Source of the DNA: a virus
Lineage: Duplodnaviria; Heunggongvirae; Uroviricota; Caudoviricetes
DNA: 40,993 nt
Direction: 5' to 3' (one strand)
IMG/VR virus record: IMGVR_UViG_2563366956_000009
The notes below the pieces were generated by a model. It worked only from the letters and a program-made list of their open reading frames with translations, searched no databases and had not been told where the DNA came from. Positions 358-34,664 of the stretch are shown here, one piece after another. The translations under genes and the position numbers were made by a program. Every line of letters begins with the position of its first letter. The stretch's first letter is position 1.

Positions 358-2750
358 TTAATACTCTCCCCCATTTGCGCATCAGTTAATTCTTTATGCC
401 AGAGACGAAGATTTCTCAAATGGCCGAATAGATGACGAGTTCCCGATGTGGCTTGACCTCCAATTCGAATAAAGGTCCGTGTTTTTACGCCCGTCCACTC
501 CGTTTTCATAGTTTTAGTAGCCTCACCGTTAGAAACTACTCGTTTAGTACCATCAGAATAAATATTAAAACCACCAATGAATTTTCGAACATCAGCTCGA
601 CCAGCAAACACACTAGAAACGTAAGTACTTGTCGACGCTTTATAAGTTTGCATATAAAGCTGACCGTAATATTTCTCAGTTGTGTTAAAAGCGTATGTAA
701 TTGACTCAATAGGTGGCACACCAGAAAAATCAAAAATACGCGGTGCTACATTAGGAGGAATATCGCCCCAATTTCTATTAACCTCGACAAGACACGTAAG
801 CGGTCTATTATAGATATTATTTTCAGTTGGGATCGTCACCATATCACTGGAGCGGGTTGCGGGTGCAGTTGTCGTAATAACAAAAGATGAAGCACATCCG
901 CCGTTTTCAAATTGTGGTGTTGCAAGGTAAATATAATCTCCCGCTTCAGTTATACCACCTTTTTTCGGCGCATACTGAATCATTGCGCCAATTAAGGTTT
1001 CACCTTCAACAGCTTCTATAGTTGCCTCATAGAAAATCCACCCTGTAACCGGATCTTTAGTTGCAGTAGCTGCTATTCTATTGGCTGCTCCGCCAGTTTT
1101 TTCTATTATCAGAGTTCCGAAAGTTAAATAAGCATCTCCTAAAAATGTATAAACCGACCCATCGTATTTTTCAAAACGCAAACGACAACGAAGACCATCA
1201 GGAGCTTTAACCCTGCATGAAACAGTGCAATACTTATTATCGCCACAAACATCAATCCCCCGGGATGCACTGCATGTATGCAGACTAAGTGCAGATGATT
1301 GTCCTGTCATATTATCTTTTGTTCGCATTTTGGCATATGAAAAACCAAATTCATCAACACCATTATTAGTTTTATCGATATTGCTGGTACTCGTCCATTC
1401 AGCGGGAGTATTGGATTTAACAAAATAGTTAGTGCGCTGTCCTTCAATCAATAAACCTTCTTTTTCAAATCGTGGCTCATCAATTTTAGCAACACTAAAT
1501 ACGCCTGATTTATTGATATATGTGGCAGTTGATGCGCGTTTAAACTTAACAACCTTGTCGCCAGGCATCGTTATTTCATCATCACCAATAACAATTTTTT
1601 TATATGACGGCGAAAAGCCCGTAATCATATCCAGTGAATCGTTAAACGGTATCCACACATCAGGCAGTGGCTGTAAGACATATTTATACGGCTCTGCTGC
1701 CTGACTTGCATACTCTCTGGCTGCGTCTTCACTTGCTTTAGCTGCTGTCTGGCTTGCTGCCGATGCTTTCGCCGAGTTCGCCGCTGCAGTCTCGCTTGTC
1801 TTTGCATTGGTTTCACTGGTTTTTGCTGCTTTTTGACTGTTGGCTGATGCAGTGGCAGAAGCAGCCGCCGCGCTTGCAGAACCAGCTGCAGCACTCTCGC
1901 TTTGGGCTGCTGCATCCTGACTGTTTTTCGCCGCAGTTTCGCTGGCTTTGGCATTCGTTTCGCTGGTCTTCGCTGCCGTCTGGCTGGACTTTGCGTTAGT
2001 TTCACTCGTCTTCGCAGCTTTCTGGCTGTTAGCCGCAGCAGTTGCTGATCCAGCTGCTGAAGTCGCAGAACCGGCTGCCGCGCTCTCGCTTTGGGCTGCT
2101 GCAACCTGGCTGTTTTTTGCCGCAGTTTCACTGGCTTTGGCATTCGTTTCGCTGGTTTTCGCTGCCGTCTGGCTGGACTTTGCGTTGGTTTCGCTCGTCT
2201 TTGCGGCTGTCTCGCTATTTTTCGCGTTGGTTTCTGATTTTTTGGCTGCTGTCGCGGAGTTTGCCGATGCAGTCTTTGAGGTCGCTGCCGCCTGTGCACT
2301 ATTAGCTGCATTCGTTTCTGAGGTTTTCGCCGCGTTCTTCGATGATGCCGCTGCAGTTTCGGATTTCTTTGCCGCCGCTGCGCTCTGAGAGGCGGCTTCA
2401 GCGTTGCGTGCCGCTTCTTCCACCATTTCCTCAAAACGACGCAATGCCTCCGGCATGACATCATCTTCCGTCATGGCACCGAGAAAATCATTCAGCGTCC
2501 CCGGCTTAGAATCTTCATACACGGTGATGGTCCCGGCATGTGAAGGCGAAAAACCTTCAACCAGCAGGATAACGCTGTACTGGCCATACTCAACATCCAT
2601 ACTGTAACGCCCGGCTTCATCCGGATTTTCTGAGGCCAGCGTGTTCACTACCACCGTGGTGCTGTTACGTTTTGCTTTCAGCTGGATTGAGCAGTTCTGT
2701 ACCGGTTTTCCTGTGCCGTCTTTCAGTACACCTGAAATCTTTACTGCCAT
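354..2750 (-). CDS. stf: side tail fibre protein (lambda Stf-like N-terminus, Ala/Thr/Ser-rich repeat shaft, distinct C-terminal receptor-binding region)
   Basis: 798 aa ORF; N-terminus MAVKISGVLKDGTGKPVQNC...GTITVYEDS matches lambda Stf as remembered; central AAKTSETNAKSSQ repeats; C-terminal ...RHLFGHLRNLRLWHKELTDAQMGE motif. Confidence 0.85.
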   Translation of the reverse strand: MAVKISGVLKDGTGKPVQNCSIQLKAKRNSTTVVVNTLASENPDEAGRYSMDVEYGQYSVILLVEGFSPSHAGTITVYEDSKPGTLNDFLGAMTEDDVMPEALRRFEEMVEEAARNAEAASQSAAAAKKSETAAASSKNAAKTSETNAANSAQAAATSKTASANSATAAKKSETNAKNSETAAKTSETNAKSSQTAAKTSETNAKASETAAKNSQVAAAQSESAAAGSATSAAGSATAAANSQKAAKTSETNAKSSQTAAKTSETNAKASETAAKNSQDAAAQSESAAAGSASAAAASATASANSQKAAKTSETNAKTSETAAANSAKASAASQTAAKASEDAAREYASQAAEPYKYVLQPLPDVWIPFNDSLDMITGFSPSYKKIVIGDDEITMPGDKVVKFKRASTATYINKSGVFSVAKIDEPRFEKEGLLIEGQRTNYFVKSNTPAEWTSTSNIDKTNNGVDEFGFSYAKMRTKDNMTGQSSALSLHTCSASRGIDVCGDNKYCTVSCRVKAPDGLRCRLRFEKYDGSVYTFLGDAYLTFGTLIIEKTGGAANRIAATATKDPVTGWIFYEATIEAVEGETLIGAMIQYAPKKGGITEAGDYIYLATPQFENGGCASSFVITTTAPATRSSDMVTIPTENNIYNRPLTCLVEVNRNWGDIPPNVAPRIFDFSGVPPIESITYAFNTTEKYYGQLYMQTYKASTSTYVSSVFAGRADVRKFIGGFNIYSDGTKRVVSNGEATKTMKTEWTGVKTRTFIRIGGQATSGTRHLFGHLRNLRLWHKELTDAQMGESIK
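1740..2400. repeat. imperfect tandem repeats inside stf (about 189 bp unit, two near-identical copies plus degenerate shorter sub-repeats)
   Basis: The block starting gcactctcgctttgggctgctgca (about 1891) recurs as gcgctctcgctttgggctgctgca (about 2080) with roughly 90 percent identity over more than 130 bp. Confidence 0.6.
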
Positions 2751-30871: not shown

Positions 30872-30896
30872 CAAAAACCCGCCGAAGCGGGTTAAG
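30872..30896 (-). terminator. intrinsic terminator ending the relB-relE-hokD operon
   Basis: Minus strand: hairpin ACCCGCTTCGGCGGGT followed by TTTTTGTTTTTATTTT. Confidence 0.65.
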
Positions 30897-30961
30897 TGCG
30901 GGTGCGTTGAGGATGCCTGCCACATCAGAGGTGGCGAGGGATTTCTCCCCCGCCGGGTCTC

Positions 30962-31117
30962 TTACTCCTCAGGTTCGTAAGCTGTGAAGACAGCGACCTC
31001 CGTCTGGCCGGTTCGGATTCGTACCTCGCAGAGGTCTTTCCTCGTTACCAGTGCCGTCACTATGACGGTTAAACAGATGACGATCAGGGCGATTAACATC
31101 GCCTTTTGCTGCTTCAT
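30962..31117 (-). CDS. hokD: Hok family type I toxin (HokD/RelF)
   Basis: Hand-translated 51 aa: MKQQKAMLIALIVICLTVIVTALVTRKDLCEVRIRTGQTEVAVFTAYEPEE; below the ORF-track size cutoff. Confidence 0.85.
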   Translation of the reverse strand: MKQQKAMLIALIVICLTVIVTALVTRKDLCEVRIRTGQTEVAVFTAYEPEE

Positions 31118-31188
31118 AGCCTGCTTCTCCTGTCAACGCAAAGCAGAAGTGTCACCTTCGGTGCGAAACAGAGATGTCATGCTTTGGT

Positions 31189-31476
31189 TCAGAGAATGCG
31201 TTTGACCGCCTCGCTATATACTTCCGAGCGTTCTCTTTTCCCAACAGAAATCACGAAAACGACAACTTTCTCGTCTATAACCTGGTATACAAGGCGATAG
31301 CCTGAAGACCGGAGCTTAATCTTGTAACAATCAGGCATACCACGGAGCTTGTTTGCTTCAATCCGGGGTGACTCAAGTACTTCAACCAGCTTCTTTTTCA
31401 ACTGTTCACGTACCGTCGAGCCCAGCTTTCGCCATTCCTTTAGTGCCCGCTCGTCAAAATCCAGAAAATACGCCAT
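31189..31476 (-). CDS. relE: RelE mRNA interferase toxin
   Basis: 95 aa MAYFLDFDERALKEWRKLGSTVREQLKKKLVEVLESPRIEANKLRGMPDCYKIKLRSSGYRLVYQVIDEKVVVFVISVGKRERSEVY... Confidence 0.95.
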   Translation of the reverse strand: MAYFLDFDERALKEWRKLGSTVREQLKKKLVEVLESPRIEANKLRGMPDCYKIKLRSSGYRLVYQVIDEKVVVFVISVGKRERSEVYSEAVKRIL

Positions 31477-31715
31477 CAGAGTTCATCCAGCGTCACACGT
31501 ACTGGCTTAGGATTACGAAGCCGTTCTTTCACTATCTCCACAAGTTCAGCATCTTCATCACTCAGGAGTGTCTGTTTGAACGGCAAGCGTTCATTGTCAG
31601 CGATATACTCGAGCATGAGACGAAGCGCTTCAGAAGGAGTTACACCCATTTTTTCAAGCGCGGCGTAAGAACGCGCTTTAAGTTCATCGTCAATACGCAG
31701 GTTAATGCTACCCAT
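31476..31715 (-). CDS. relB: RelB antitoxin
   Basis: 79 aa MGSINLRIDDELKARSYAALEKMGVTPSEALRLMLEYIADNERLPFKQTLLSDEDAELVEIVKERLRNPKPVRVTLDEL; stop overlaps relE start. Confidence 0.95.
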   Translation of the reverse strand: MGSINLRIDDELKARSYAALEKMGVTPSEALRLMLEYIADNERLPFKQTLLSDEDAELVEIVKERLRNPKPVRVTLDEL

Positions 31716-31760
31716 GTCTTACACCTCTTGTAATTACAAATGTCATTACAAGTATCGCAC
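31716..31760 (-). promoter_or_regulatory. relBE promoter/operator (relO)
   Basis: CTTGTAATTACAAATGTCATTACAAG immediately upstream of relB, including the perfect 12-bp palindrome TTGTAATTACAA. Confidence 0.7.
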
Positions 31761-32045
31761 TACAACATGCTTAGGGCAAGTCACGAAGGAAGTCAGAAAG
31801 TAGTCGTAAGAACGGTGATCACTGTCCGCTTTGTGCCAGGAGCAGCCATTGCTAAGTCCATCCTGTATTGTGCAGGTCAGCTCGTTTTTAAAGAGTCCGG
31901 CCATCATCTTACTGGTACAGACACCATATACTTTGTGACGGTCAGGCTACATATGCACAACTCAACTTATTCATCTATTTTTTGCTTTAGCATGTCAGTG
32001 TTGCTTTCTCGTCGGCGGGTGAGCGGTGACCTGACCTGTCGATAA
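31740..32045 (+). CDS. questionable ORF (101 aa; YdfV-like by position and length only)
   Basis: ORF between relB and flxA; ATG lies inside the relO operator, no obvious RBS, low-complexity translation. Confidence 0.25.
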   Translation: MSLQVSHYNMLRASHEGSQKVVVRTVITVRFVPGAAIAKSILYCAGQLVFKESGHHLTGTDTIYFVTVRLHMHNSTYSSIFCFSMSVLLSRRRVSGDLTCR

Positions 32046-32197
32046 AGGAACGTAACACGTTTTATGCAACACCCGCATGCGGCAGAAAATTATTGCCGAA
32101 CGTTTACCCCTGTCAACAAGCTTTACTTTCTGAGGCGCGCCAGCCCGCGAGGAAAACAATCTGAACATCAAACAATTAATGACACAAGAAATACGAT

Positions 32198-32224
32198 TAA
32201 AGATTTTTTTGTGCATGCCGATAG
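32198..32224 (+). promoter_or_regulatory. sigma28 (FliA)-type promoter upstream of flxA
   Basis: TAAAGATT-N11-GCCGATAG, close to the sigma28 consensus TAAAGTTT-N11-GCCGATAA, about 24 nt upstream of the flxA start. Confidence 0.75.
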
Positions 32225-32247
32225 TGCTTTTTTAAAAGGAGAAATCT

Positions 32248-32580
32248 ATGTCTGTCACAATTCAGGGAAATACCTCAACCGTTATTTCAAACAACTCCGC
32301 CCCGGAAGGAACATCAGAAATAGCCAAAATCACAAGACAAATTCAGGTGCTGACTGAAAAGCTTGGGAAAATCTCATCGGAAGAGGGGATGACGACACAG
32401 CAGAAAAAAGAAATGGCTGCATTGGTACAGAAGCAAATTGAAAGCCTCTGGGCTCAACTGGAGCAGTTGTTAAGGCAGCAGGCAGAGAAAAAGAATGAAG
32501 ACGCGACAGTTCAGCCTGATAAAAAAGAAGAGAAAAAAGACGATACAAATACCGCTGGCACCATTGATATTTACGTCTAA
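32248..32580 (+). CDS. flxA: FlxA protein
   Basis: 110 aa MSVTIQGNTSTVISNNSAPEGTSEIAKITRQIQVLTEKLGKISSEEGMTTQQKKEMAALVQKQIESLWAQLEQLLRQQAEKK... Confidence 0.9.
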   Translation: MSVTIQGNTSTVISNNSAPEGTSEIAKITRQIQVLTEKLGKISSEEGMTTQQKKEMAALVQKQIESLWAQLEQLLRQQAEKKNEDATVQPDKKEEKKDDTNTAGTIDIYV

Positions 32581-32594
32581 GTGACAGCCGTATT

Positions 32595-32625
32595 GTGGCC
32601 CTCATCGGGCCACTTTTCGCCATCA
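32595..32625 (+). terminator. intrinsic terminator after flxA
   Basis: Hairpin GTGGCCCTCATCGGGCCAC followed by TTTTCGCC. Confidence 0.5.
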
Positions 32626-32959
32626 GCCTTTTCTTTAAAGACATATTATCTTTGTATCATTTCTGATAGTTAACATTACAAGATATAAGTAATGGACGCA
32701 CTCCCAATTAGTCTATTTAAATCGCCACGAGTTTAACTGACAACCCATGATCAATTATGAATTGCAACTATTTCTGTAGTCACTTTTGTGGGGACAGTCC
32801 ACAAAACTGCCAACTTCCGCTTCTTGCTCTTAGCGGACATTAGCATAGGCTATTTACCATAACGCCTCATTACGCGCACCGCCCAGACTGACTCAGCGCG
32901 TTTCTGGCATATCCCCGGTAAAACAAGTAACAAACCACCCGAAAATGAACACCAGAAAC

Positions 32960-34400
32960 GCGACTTAAGAATCTACCCTATGAATGGATATGCACTCAAC
33001 CGAATCGATCTTGGTTTCAATCTTTTTTATCGGGATCAGGCTTCTTTTTAGGTAACTTCGGGGGCTTAACTTGCTGATGACTTTGCGTTCGGCGCGTAAG
33101 CCAGGGATGGTCAGCTTTAGGTTTAACATAGTATTTTGAGCGTAAATCAATACGGGCATTATCCACTCGTTCATGGACACTCTTTTCATCATCCAGTGGT
33201 ATAGGCTCCGGGCCATCAACATACTTTTCCCAGCCCAGCGCTTTCCCGTCATACAGAACGTTAATTTCACCGTCAAAGTTCTCGCATACAGTAACAACCG
33301 AATGCCTAAGTCGATATCCCCGGCCCTCACTGCGTACCTGAAACGCACTGCTTTTGTACTGGAAAGTGAGATTTTTAGACAGAACGCGCTTCGCCTGTAG
33401 GCTGAAGATATAACCCAGTTCCTCTTCAGAATGGTGCACATCAAGATGAGCATTATCAGTAGTACGAGGCGACGTAGCGAACCGGTTGTTATAGGCTTCA
33501 ATAAAGGTCGGCAACCATGCATTTGCTGTTTCAATATCACTGATATTCTGAAGCCGCATTTCTTTGACCAGCCTGTCCTGTAGTGTCTGATTGGCGCGCT
33601 CTACCCGCCCTTTTGCCTGCGGGCTGTTGGCATGGATTGGCTCGATGCCCAGTGTCTTTATCGCACGAGTGAACTGGGTCAGCTCACCTTCCCGCTCTGG
33701 GTTATTTACCCTGAATATACTGTGTCTATCAGAGTAGAGAGCGAGCGGTACGCCATGATCATTAAGGTAACCCCGGAGGGTTTCCATGTAAGCCCGGGTT
33801 GTTTCAGCAGGCACAAAACGCAACGCCATCAACGCACTGGTGGCATCATCAATGAAAACGATCAGTGTACATCTGGGGCCTCGATTTTCAAACCAGTCAT
33901 GAGGTGAGCCATCAATCTGGATCAGTTCACCGTAAGATGGTCGTCGCATGCGGCGTTGATATATACGGGCAATTTTACGACGGCGTTCACGCCATAACCC
34001 CTCTTCTATCATCCACTTTCTGAGAGTTTCAACGGATAAAGATAAACCGTGTATCTCGCGCAATTTTTCGCACGCAAACGTAGGTCCAAAATCAGCGTAA
34101 CGGCCTTTGAGGAGTGAAATTACTGTTGCTCTGAATTCAGTAGAAAAGGAATTATTAGGACGCTTTCCACGTCGGTGGGAAACCAGAGCAGAAGGCCCTT
34201 CATTTCTATACCGTTGCACCAGACGTTTAACCTGCCGAATAGAAATGCCAATGCGTGCCGCAGCTTGTTCCTGAATAATCTGAAGTCGGTGGAGTTCCTT
34301 ATGACTCATCGTAACAGTCTCTTTGATCATGAAAAATCCCCCAGAGAATTGTCTGGGGACATTTTAGAATGGTTCAAAGGGGACATTACAGCTTGGTGTT
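32960..34400 (-). mobile_element. putative insertion sequence around an rve-type DDE transposase (boundaries not determined)
   Basis: Single large transposase ORF; no clean terminal inverted repeats found by eye, so the ends are approximate. Confidence 0.4.
33017..34330 (-). CDS. DDE transposase, retroviral-integrase (rve) superfamily (IS481/ISNCY-like)
   Basis: 437 aa; N-terminal helix-turn-helix (IGISIRQVKRLVQRY), catalytic core with ...IQIDGSPHDW..., ...LIVFIDDATS... and ...NSPQAKGRVERANQTLQDRL... Confidence 0.7.
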   Translation of the reverse strand: MIKETVTMSHKELHRLQIIQEQAAARIGISIRQVKRLVQRYRNEGPSALVSHRRGKRPNNSFSTEFRATVISLLKGRYADFGPTFACEKLREIHGLSLSVETLRKWMIEEGLWRERRRKIARIYQRRMRRPSYGELIQIDGSPHDWFENRGPRCTLIVFIDDATSALMALRFVPAETTRAYMETLRGYLNDHGVPLALYSDRHSIFRVNNPEREGELTQFTRAIKTLGIEPIHANSPQAKGRVERANQTLQDRLVKEMRLQNISDIETANAWLPTFIEAYNNRFATSPRTTDNAHLDVHHSEEELGYIFSLQAKRVLSKNLTFQYKSSAFQVRSEGRGYRLRHSVVTVCENFDGEINVLYDGKALGWEKYVDGPEPIPLDDEKSVHERVDNARIDLRSKYYVKPKADHPWLTRRTQSHQQVKPPKLPKKKPDPDKKD

Positions 34401-34664
34401 AACAATAGCCTGCTTCTCCGTGCCTTTCGGCACGTAAGAGGCTAACCTACATGTGTCTAGCATGAAATTGGCCTCAGATTAATGTTAAGCGTCTTGCAGG
34501 ACGCGTAATGTTAACTGGGGCTTTTCTCTATCTGCCGTTGGTGTCCATGCCCGAGGCAGATAGCCTCAAGCACCCGCAGTCATTCTACTTAACTAAGATT
34601 TCCCCGCAAACCGTTTTTGTCCAGCACAGTAAATATCCAACTAAACCAATGGAGTTCGCTGTAT

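What the first reader, a model, noticed from the sequence alone, without database searches (positions are those of the whole stretch)
32780..34560. rve-type transposase without recognisable terminal inverted repeats, flanked by GGGGACA(T)T repeats and long hairpins
The 437-aa DDE transposase is intact, but I could not find matching inverted ends. Instead there are same-orientation GGGGACA copies (about 32791, 34365, 34390), an 8-bp stem hairpin (TTTTGTGG/CCACAAAA at about 32784..32806), a 9-bp stem (CTATCTGCC/GGCAGATAG at about 34526..34561) and TAATGTTAA direct repeats around a GCGTC/GACGC palindrome (about 34469..34507). This could be an unusual IS family or a domesticated transposase.
Basis: seen in the sequence. 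Interest (0 to 1): 0.45.

Follow-up and report, generated by a model that had tools for sequence, protein, structure and literature searches.

The report
relBE-carrying ISEsa1 transposon in hokD
The transposase looks end-less only because its true second end lies 1.7 kb further left: it belongs to a 3.3-kb ISEsa1 (IS1202-family) transposon that carries the relBE toxin-antitoxin genes and has inserted at the start of the hokD toxin gene.

Summary
The 437-aa ORF (33017..34330, minus strand) is the ISEsa1 / IS1202-family transposase. It is neither a new IS family nor a domesticated gene.

The element spans 31131..34404 (3,274 bp):
- IRL: TGTTAACACCAAGCTGTAATGTCCCC, at 34404.
- Outer IRR: TGTCAACGCAAAGCAGAAGTGTCACC, at 31131. 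It matches IRL at 21 of 28 positions (0 of 2,000 shuffles reach this score).
- Content: the transposase gene, flxA, ydfV, relB and relE.
- Flanks: a perfect 15-bp target duplication, GGAGAAGCAGGCTAT.

The target is a hok/sok locus. An orphan leader lies at 34405..34575 (Rfam sok, 104 bits) and hokD at 30962..31117. An unoccupied site with one copy of the 15-mer exists in over 2,000 complete E. coli genomes.

The same ends flank 3.3-kb and 12.8-kb versions in three other hok loci on plasmids. Each has its own matching 15-bp duplication. Distant relatives are 1.45-kb ISs with the same ends and 15-17-bp duplications.

Two GGGGACATT copies are subterminal repeats of IRL. The third GGGGACA and the 8-bp hairpin are at chance level.

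This copy's transposase has a 9-aa deletion in its DNA-binding domain. I found no published description of the transposon or of its preference for hok start regions.

The parts
31131..34404 (-). Whole transposon, 3,274 bp. In transposase orientation: IRL - tnp - decayed inner end - cargo - relB - relE - outer IRR.
   Evidence: Bounded by a perfect 15-bp direct repeat. Absent from the empty site in E. coli CP53, where the flanks are collinear. The same ends occur in three other hok loci.
34405..34419 (-). Target-site duplication, copy next to IRL (GGAGAAGCAGGCTAT on the minus strand).
   Evidence: family D6
31116..31130 (-). Target-site duplication, copy next to the outer IRR. It supplies the Shine-Dalgarno sequence and the AT of the hokD ATG.
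34345..34404 (-). Left end (IRL): TGTTAACACCAAGCTGTAATGTCCCCTTTGAACCATTCTAAAATGTCCCC.
   Evidence: The end is identical in about 25 contexts, while the base just outside it varies. It matches the IRL of the Hahella IS at 42 of 50 positions.
31131..31188 (+). Outer right end (IRR), read inward: TGTCAACGCAAAGCAGAAGTGTCACC... It fills the 58 bp between the relE stop codon and the duplication.
   Evidence: Matches IRL at 21 of 28 positions from base 1; 0 of 2,000 shuffles reach the score. By eye, 21 of 26 positions match the IRR of a Rhabdochlamydiaceae IS (...GCGGACATTTCTATTTTGCGTTGACA; sequences).
33017..34330 (-). Transposase gene, 437 aa, ISEsa1 / IS1202 family. It has a 27-bp in-frame deletion in the N-terminal HTH region.
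32798..32841 (.). Decayed inner right end plus a palindrome (AACTTCCGCT N10 AGCGGACATT at 32812-32841). This is about where ISfinder's 1609-bp ISEsa1 would end, and it marks the tnp-side cargo boundary.
   Evidence: Other versions of the element diverge here. In the window it aligns to IRL no better than chance. The corresponding sequence in L089 matches the Hahella IRR with an 8-nt gap.
31844..32818 (.). Variable cargo, 975 bp: flxA (32248..32580, +) and most of the ydfV ORF (31740..32045, +).
   Evidence: Other versions carry 2.36 kb (LysR-type regulator plus hydrolase, L135) or 10.5 kb (ncr/chr metal resistance, L089) between the same boundaries. The boundaries are inverted repeats (pair I3).
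31189..31715 (-). Conserved passenger genes: relB (31476..31715) and relE (31189..31476), a type II toxin-antitoxin pair.
   Evidence: The module 31131..31842 is shared at 98.9% with the 12.8-kb version.
34405..34575 (-). Orphan hok/sok leader, the upstream half of the target locus.
   Evidence: Full-length Rfam RF01794 match, 104.1 bits, E = 1e-23, ending at the hok AUG position.
30962..31117 (-). hokD coding sequence, the downstream half of the target locus.
   Evidence: It is contiguous with the leader in empty-site genomes.

Best explanation
The transposase is the enzyme module of a 3,274-bp IS1202-family transposon, an ISEsa1 element carrying passenger genes, at window 31131..34404.

Shown:
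- Its ends are the IRL at 34404 and an outer IRR at 31131, just after relE.
- The element inserted into the translation-initiation region of a hok/sok locus of a Qin-like prophage and duplicated 15 bp of target. This separated the hok/sok leader (34405..34575) from the hokD coding sequence (30962..31117).
- The duplication starts immediately 3' of a conserved stem in the hok leader DNA. It re-creates the hokD ribosome-binding site and start codon on the IRR side.
- The same unit, with exchangeable cargo between tnp and relBE, has inserted at the equivalent position of at least three other hok loci. Each insertion has its own matching 15-bp duplication.
- An unoccupied site exists in many E. 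coli genomes.

From the literature: hokD is transcribed as the third gene of the relBE operon (Gotfredsen and Gerdes 1998, as cited in PMC5120126).

Inferred:
- The DDE transposase binds the AATGTCCCC repeats at both ends.
- It moves by copy-out/paste-in, as proposed for the family member ISKpn21.
- It recognises a feature next to the target, as the dif-targeting IS1202 relatives do.
- relBE acts as an addiction module that stabilises the element.
- This window's copy is probably not autonomous, because its transposase lacks 9 conserved residues of the DNA-binding domain.
For: Family membership: NCBIfam ISNCY_2, 455.7 bits, E = 1.2e-136. RefSeq names the 98%-identical copies ISEsa1.

Ends and duplication in the window: a perfect 15-bp direct repeat lies at 31116-31130 and 34405-34419. 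IRL and the outer IRR match at 21 of 28 positions, and 0 of 2,000 shuffles reach the score.

Empty site: a reconstructed sequence of leader plus hokD matches in one piece at 98.6-99.2% in 2,125 E. coli records. Strain CP53 has a single copy of the 15-mer, and its flanks are collinear with the window.

Independent insertions with locus-specific duplications:
- IncI plasmid: TGGAGGGGCTATGAT.
- IncF plasmid: GGAGAAGAAGGCCAT.
- Phytobacter plasmid, 12,843-bp version: GGAGAAGTCAGCTAT.

Target choice: the Rfam sok model ends exactly at the IRL in the window and in L011, L014, L025, L040, L086 and L087. L089 shows the same hok-leader junction in its sequence. L021 shows the same 15-bp target in the opposite orientation.

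Relatives define the family's architecture. Ten Hahella copies are 1,449 bp with TGTTAGCCC.../TGTCAACCC... ends, two AATGTCCCC repeats per end, and 15-17-bp duplications. Nine Rhabdochlamydiaceae copies end in ...TTTTGCGTTGACA and have 15-16-bp duplications.

Frequency in 5,426 complete E. coli genomes: 1,165 carry the relE-IRR-hokD junction and 678 carry the IRL-leader junction.
Against: - No experiment shows transposition.
- Copies of the 1.6-kb tnp segment in Scandinavium, Dryocola and Kluyvera chromosomes lie in non-hok sites. No outer IRR or duplication was found within the 2.5 kb of flank available, so the model is not shown for them.
- One copy of the 3,301-bp unit lies in a non-hok site with only a 6-bp direct repeat (L120).
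- A relic inner right end exists. The outer IRR could therefore be a second end acquired later rather than the original one.
- How cargo is exchanged at fixed internal boundaries is unexplained.
Confidence: 0.88

Rival explanations
1. Two separate events. A standard 1.6-kb ISEsa1, with a degenerate right end near 32800, inserted at the hok start. The relBE-flxA-ydfV DNA arrived beside it by some other route. The 15-bp repeat would then be conserved hok sequence, not a duplication.
For: ISfinder delimits ISEsa1 as 1609 bp (PMC10132070). A relic inner end is detectable in L089. Ramisetty and co-workers describe relBE as having integrated at hokD, with no transposon mentioned (PMC6379469).
Against: The empty site has one copy of the 15-mer, with leader and hokD contiguous. 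Four loci each carry a different 15-mer, and in each it is repeated exactly at the IRL and outer-IRR junctions. The whole 3.3-kb unit recurs with identical end points in different replicons. The inner end aligns to IRL at chance level in the window.
Confidence: 0.05
2. ISEcp1-like read-through. The inner end is the true IRR. The transposase occasionally skips it and uses a chance IRR-like sequence downstream of relE, mobilising adjacent DNA as a transposition unit.
For: A relic inner end lies just after tnp, and the DNA between it and relBE varies. This is the known behaviour of ISEcp1 (my own knowledge).
Against: Every duplication-verified event uses the same outer end, whereas read-through normally gives varied ends. 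The outer IRR resembles the IRRs of distant family members much better than chance: by eye, 21 of 26 positions against the Rhabdochlamydiaceae IS (sequences), and it has the double subterminal motif seen in Hahella. It is also better conserved than the inner end.
Confidence: 0.07
3. The unit spreads between hok loci by homologous recombination through the flanking hok homology, not by transposition.
For: hok loci are similar to one another. One prophage contig has mismatched flanks, with a pnd-type leader on one side and hokD on the other (L149). This shows that such recombination does occur.
Against: Recombination would carry the donor's junction sequence. Instead, each locus has its own 15-mer, present once in the empty state and twice around the element. 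Relatives in other phyla make 15-17-bp duplications at unrelated sites.
Confidence: 0.03
4. A domesticated or decaying transposase that is retained in the prophage for a host function.
For: This copy has a 9-aa deletion in the HTH region but keeps an open frame. The insertion is fixed in many E. coli lineages.
Against: In K-12 and about 490 other genomes, the tnp and IRL have been deleted while relBE-hokD remains, so tnp is dispensable. Copies that are 98-99.9% identical occur on IncF and IncI plasmids of several genera, which indicates recent mobility.
Confidence: 0.03

Closest known systems
ISEsa1 (ISfinder entry; IS1202 family, formerly the ISNCY group)
   Same: The transposase matches: RefSeq uses this name for copies 98% identical to the window's. 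The left end is the same. The entry records a weak TIR (15/22) and no TSD, which agrees with what the 1.6-kb segment shows here (PMC10132070).
   Different: The unit that actually carries a target duplication is 3.3-12.8 kb. It ends at an IRR beyond relE and makes 15-bp duplications. The 1609-bp delimitation appears to stop at a decayed inner end. I could not query ISfinder directly.
IS1202 family, ISTde1 subgroup (TSDs of 16-17 bp)
   Same: A single HTH-DDE transposase. Ends beginning TGT. A long target duplication: 15 bp here and 15-17 bp in the Hahella and Rhabdochlamydiaceae relatives (the family is described).
   Different: Harmer and Hall place ISEsa1 in its own subgroup with ISCARN112. 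No target specificity or passenger genes are reported for the ISTde1 group.
ISAba32/ISAjo2 subgroup of IS1202, which targets dif/pdif (XerC/D) sites
   Same: Oriented, site-specific insertion. The recognised feature lies immediately outside the duplication on the IRL side, so its distance from the IS equals the duplication length. Tandem insertions at the same site also occur (compare L022 and L027 here).
   Different: The target here is the hok leader stem and start region, not a Xer site. The duplication is 15 bp rather than 5-6 bp. One opposite-orientation insertion was seen (L021).
Transporter IS (tIS) such as tISKpn21, tISKpn65 and tISRel10
   Same: IS1202-family elements that carry an extra gene between the transposase gene and the IRR.
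   Different: Those carry one ORF of unknown function. This element carries a relBE module plus exchangeable cargo of 1 to 10.5 kb.
Tn3-family transposons carrying toxin-antitoxin pairs (Lima-Mendez et al. 2020; cited from my own knowledge)
   Same: A type II toxin-antitoxin pair is a conserved internal part of a transposon, presumably stabilising it.
   Different: The transposase family and transposition mechanism are different. That case has no hok targeting.

Membership tests
IS1202 family (ISNCY group 2) | Transposase of 400-500 aa with an N-terminal HTH and a DDE/rve core that matches the family profile | tested here: met
   NF033594: 455.7 bits against a cutoff of 250, E = 1.2e-136, covering profile positions 7-365 of 368. 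Pfam HTH_29, HTH_32 and HTH_28 score above their cutoffs. Pfam rve_3 scores 24.3 bits, just below its cutoff of 26.5.
IS1202 family (ISNCY group 2) | Imperfect terminal inverted repeats of about 22-29 bp beginning TGT | tested here: met
   IRL TGTTAACACC... against outer IRR TGTCAACGCA...: 21 of 28 positions match, and 0 of 2,000 shuffles reach the score. This holds only with the outer IRR at 31131. The inner candidate is at chance level.
IS1202 family (ISNCY group 2) | Target duplication in one of the family's length classes (5-6, 15-17 or 27-28 bp) | tested here: met
   A 15-bp perfect duplication in four independent sites, plus an empty site.
IS1202 family (ISNCY group 2) | Simple IS of 1.3-2 kb with a single ORF | tested here: not met
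   The unit is 3,274 bp and carries relB, relE, flxA and ydfV. Other versions are 4.7 and 12.8 kb. It is therefore a transposon or transporter IS rather than a simple IS.
ISEsa1 as delimited in ISfinder (1609 bp) | At least 95% nucleotide identity to the reference over its length, with the same ends | not testable with these tools
The identity is inferred from RefSeq naming of 98-99% identical copies and from the published length and TIR.
[quoted passage not shown] | Conserved hok mRNA leader / Sok RNA structure upstream of a Hok-family ORF | tested here: met
   RF01794: 104.1 bits against a gathering score of 59, full length. hokD is annotated at 30962..31117. Leader and ORF are contiguous in empty-site genomes.
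Domesticated transposase | Loss of the element's ends and of mobility, with the gene retained under selection at a fixed locus | tested here: not met
   Both ends and the duplication are present. The same unit lies at other sites on plasmids. The tnp is deleted in K-12 while the rest of the element remains.

The most novel reading that the evidence does not exclude
ISEsa1 is mis-delimited as a 1.6-kb IS without a target duplication. It would in fact be the core of a family of cargo transposons with this layout: IRL - tnp - exchangeable cargo - relBE - IRR. These insert, with a 15-bp duplication, immediately after a conserved stem in the translation-initiation region of hok toxin genes. One such insertion would have created the classical relB-relE-hokD (relBEF) operon of E. 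coli and left an orphan hok/sok leader 3.3 kb away. This would be a second kind of site-specific targeting in the IS1202 family, alongside XerC/D-site targeting. It would also be a case in which a type II toxin-antitoxin system rides a transposon that takes over a type I toxin gene.
Probability: 0.6. Interest if true: 0.65.

Novelty: new variant of a known kind. Interest (0 to 1): 0.55.

Why it matters
- It resolves a curated anomaly. ISEsa1 is listed with weak inverted repeats and no target duplication, and it sits in its own IS1202 subgroup.
- It shows that the textbook relBE locus, together with flxA and ydfV, is transposon cargo rather than native Qin prophage DNA. This explains why hokD lacks its own regulatory leader in K-12.
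- It identifies hok start regions on plasmids and prophages as a specific transposition target. The same vehicle also carries nickel and chromate resistance genes between plasmids.
- It corrects an annotation artefact. RefSeq splits this open transposase gene into a 'partial' pseudogene plus ydfW.

Tried and rejected
1. The best inner candidate (about 32798-32822) aligns to IRL no better than shuffled sequence (841 of 2,000), so I rejected it as the functional end for this copy.
2. I searched for a 15-bp duplication or an outer IRR around the 1.6-kb copies in Scandinavium, Dryocola, Kluyvera, Citrobacter and other genera. None lies within the 2.5 kb of flank held. This is unresolved, not negative.
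3. I looked for an empty site for the non-hok insertion L120 in the phage collection. None was found.
4. I looked for a cargo-less version, with tnp joined directly to relBE, in plasmids. No record has the joined query in one place.
5. I considered TAATGTTAA / AGTTAACATTAC (32668-32679 against 34505-34516, pair I16) as possible ends of a larger unit. I rejected this: one copy lies in the hok leader and the other in cargo, and by my own estimate a 12-nt match is near chance for this search space.
6. Literature searches (ISEsa1; ISNCY + relE + hok; hokD + relBE + transposase; ydfW/intK/flxA/ydfV; ncrY/relBE; relF/hokD + TSD) found no description of this transposon. Ramisetty and Santhosh 2016, which reports relBE integration at hokD, is not held.
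Full report
**What is at the coordinates**

The window around the finding is a Qin-like prophage segment of E. coli. On the minus strand it holds hokD (30962..31117), relE and relB. On the plus strand it holds ydfV and flxA (32248..32580). A 437-aa ORF then lies on the minus strand at 33017..34330.

The ORF scores 455.7 bits (E = 1.2e-136) against NCBIfam NF033594, the ISNCY/IS1202-type transposase profile. It also has Pfam HTH domains and a weak rve_3 match. Plasmid copies 98% identical to it are named 'IS1202-like element ISEsa1 family transposase' in RefSeq.

In RefSeq E. coli chromosomes the same open frame is annotated as a 'partial' ISNCY pseudogene plus the 49-aa K-12 gene ydfW. This looks like an artefact of propagating the K-12 annotation, because the plasmid copies are annotated as one 446-aa protein.

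**Checking the observation**

- The GGGGACA copies start at 32790, 34355 and 34379. The window holds 4 such heptamers against 4.4 expected.
- The 8-bp hairpin at 32784..32806 is real. It is one of 18 such hairpins in the window.
- The 9-bp stem and the TAATGTTAA/GCGTC features to the right of the gene all fall inside a full-length Rfam sok match at 34404..34575, minus strand, 104 bits, E = 1e-23. That match ends at the hok start codon. They are structures of a hok/sok leader, not transposon ends.

**Finding the real ends**

I compared about 25 copies from other replicons and species. The end upstream of the transposase gene is invariant: TGTTAACACCAAGCTGTAATGTCCCC, at window 34404 read on the minus strand. 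The base just outside it varies.

On the other side, copies diverge from one another near 32812-32826. Nothing there aligns to the left end better than chance. This matches the published ISfinder description of ISEsa1: 1609 bp, TIR 15/22, and no TSD when multiple examples were examined (PMC10132070).

**The key step**

In many diverged contexts, the DNA just outside the left end is a hok leader ending at the hok start codon. Several plasmids carry the same flxA-ydfV-relBE DNA beyond the transposase gene, followed by a resident hok gene. I therefore read the junctions directly.

- In the window, the 15-mer GGAGAAGCAGGCTAT abuts the left end (34405-34419). It recurs immediately after ...CTTCTGCTTTGCGTTGACA and immediately before the G of the hokD ATG (31116-31130).
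- The IncI plasmid has TGGAGGGGCTATGAT at both junctions.
- The IncF plasmid has GGAGAAGAAGGCCAT at both junctions.
- A Phytobacter plasmid has GGAGAAGTCAGCTAT at both junctions of a 12,843-bp version.

A reconstructed unoccupied site, made of the leader plus hokD with one copy of the 15-mer, matches in a single piece at 98.6-99.2% in 2,125 complete E. coli records. In strain CP53 the leader runs straight into hokD and both flanks are collinear with the window.

The element is therefore 31131..34404 (3,274 bp), with a 15-bp target-site duplication.

**The outer end is a genuine family end**

Read inward, the outer end is TGTCAACGCAAAGCAGAAGTGTCACC. It matches the left end at 21 of 28 positions from base 1, and 0 of 2,000 shuffles reach that score.

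Relatives in other phyla show the ancestral architecture.
- Ten copies in Hahella (62% amino-acid identity) are 1,449 bp. Their ends are TGTTAGCCC... and TGTCAACCC..., each with two AATGTCCCC repeats, and they have 15-17-bp duplications.
- Nine copies in a Rhabdochlamydiaceae genome (50% amino-acid identity) end in ...GCGGACATTTCTATTTTGCGTTGACA and have 15-16-bp duplications. By my count, 21 of 26 positions of that end match the window's outer end.

**Structure and variants**

The left-end/transposase module (34404..32812) and the relBE/right-end module (31842..31131) are shared at 98-99% among versions. The DNA between them differs:
- 975 bp (flxA, ydfV) in the window;
- 2.36 kb (LysR-type regulator plus alpha/beta hydrolase) in a prophage contig with the same hokD duplication;
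- 10.5 kb (ncrABCY, chrBA and others) on the Phytobacter plasmid.

The cargo boundaries carry related palindromes built from the AATGTCC(C/G)C motif. I cannot explain how cargo is exchanged there. A relic inner right end is recognisable in the Phytobacter version.

**Target choice**

In all four duplication-verified events, the duplication begins right after a short conserved stem of the hok leader (for example GCCGAAAGGCAA|GGAG...). The same holds at the left-end junction of at least seven further diverged hok leaders (L008, L011, L014, L016, L025, L039, L040). The distance from the stem is 15-16 nt wherever the ATG happens to lie. One copy (L021) sits on the same 15 bp in the opposite orientation.

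The geometry recalls the dif/pdif-targeting IS1202 relatives. There the recognised site also lies just outside the duplication on the left-end side. Targeting is not absolute: several copies, and one complete 3,301-bp unit (L120), lie elsewhere.

**Consequences**

The insertion leaves an orphan hok/sok leader upstream of the left end. It puts relBE directly upstream of hokD, and the duplication restores the hokD ribosome-binding site and ATG. This fits the known co-transcription of relB-relE-hokD (Gotfredsen and Gerdes 1998, as cited in PMC5120126).

In K-12 MG1655, homology with the window stops at 33201. A deletion has removed most of the transposase gene, the left end and the leader. That explains why the transposon is not evident in K-12, and why ydfW exists as an annotated gene.

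Among 5,426 complete genomes, 1,165 have the relE-right end-hokD junction and 678 have the left end-leader junction.

The window's transposase lacks nine residues (SINRHITQE) of the N-terminal HTH region that every relative keeps. This copy is probably not autonomous, which is an inference.

**What is known and what seems new**

- ISEsa1 and the IS1202 family are known.
- The integration of relBE at hokD has been stated before (Ramisetty and Santhosh 2016, quoted in PMC6379469).
- In the held literature I found no description of the transposon, its outer end, the 15-bp duplication, the hok-start targeting or the exchangeable cargo.
- The key 2016 paper and ISfinder itself could not be consulted, so the claim of novelty is provisional.

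**Verdict**

The flagged feature is a member of a known IS family, not a new family and not a domesticated gene. The missing ends were real for the interval examined, and following them up re-delimits the element as a hok-targeting, relBE-carrying transposon. I have high confidence in the structure and moderate confidence in the proposed mechanism of target recognition. Interest is moderate.

Noticed in passing
window 32659..32683: The 25-bp unit ATTTCTGATAGTTAACATTACAAGA is present once here. It is tandemly duplicated in many otherwise identical E. coli chromosomes, for example K_EC180, which accounts for the 3,299-bp form of the element.
   Followed up: partly
window 31740..32045 (+): The ydfV ORF straddles the cargo boundary at 31843/31844. 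Its first 104 nt lie in the conserved relB-upstream module and the rest in the exchangeable cargo. It may be a chance or fusion ORF rather than a gene.
   Followed up: no
window 33017..33166 and 33287..34330: RefSeq (PGAP) annotates this single open 437-aa frame as ydfW plus an 'incomplete, missing C-terminus' ISNCY pseudogene. The 446-aa plasmid copies are annotated as intact proteins.
   Followed up: partly
window 31823..31843 and 32812..32841; L135 and L089: Related palindromes (A[A/C]TGTCCGCT N9-10 AGCGGAC...) sit at both cargo boundaries. They are built from the same motif as the subterminal repeats of the ends. Cargo of 1, 2.4 or 10.5 kb is exchanged exactly between them, by an unknown mechanism.
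   Followed up: partly
L120 1345..4645 (IMG/VR contig IMGVR_UViG_2912051188_000002): The complete 3,301-bp unit lies in a non-hok site of a lambdoid prophage. It is flanked by only a 6-bp direct repeat (CGCCTT) instead of 15 bp. No empty site was found.
   Followed up: partly
L022 about 2330..2452 (Leclercia sp. EMC7): The left end of a related element (77% amino-acid identity) lies 10 nt after an outer right end downstream of relE. This is a tandem insertion at the same hok start. Hahella L027 likewise has two tandem copies that share one duplication.
   Followed up: no
L149 (IMG/VR): This unit has a pnd-type leader 15-mer at the left end and the hokD 15-mer at the right end. It is probably a recombinant between two inserted copies.
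   Followed up: no
L090 (K-12 MG1655); window 33201: Homology between K-12 and the window ends at window 33201. K-12 has lost most of the transposase gene, the left end, the duplication copy and the hok/sok leader, and it joins directly to ydfX/dicC.
   Followed up: partly
window 30872..30953 (-): A sub-threshold Rfam match to isrK (25 bits, E = 0.018) with a terminator-like hairpin lies just downstream of hokD.
   Followed up: no
L038, L035 (Scandinavium, Escherichia sp. ESNIH1): Related transposase genes are interrupted, with ORFs of 164-165 aa, so several chromosomal relatives are decayed copies.
   Followed up: no
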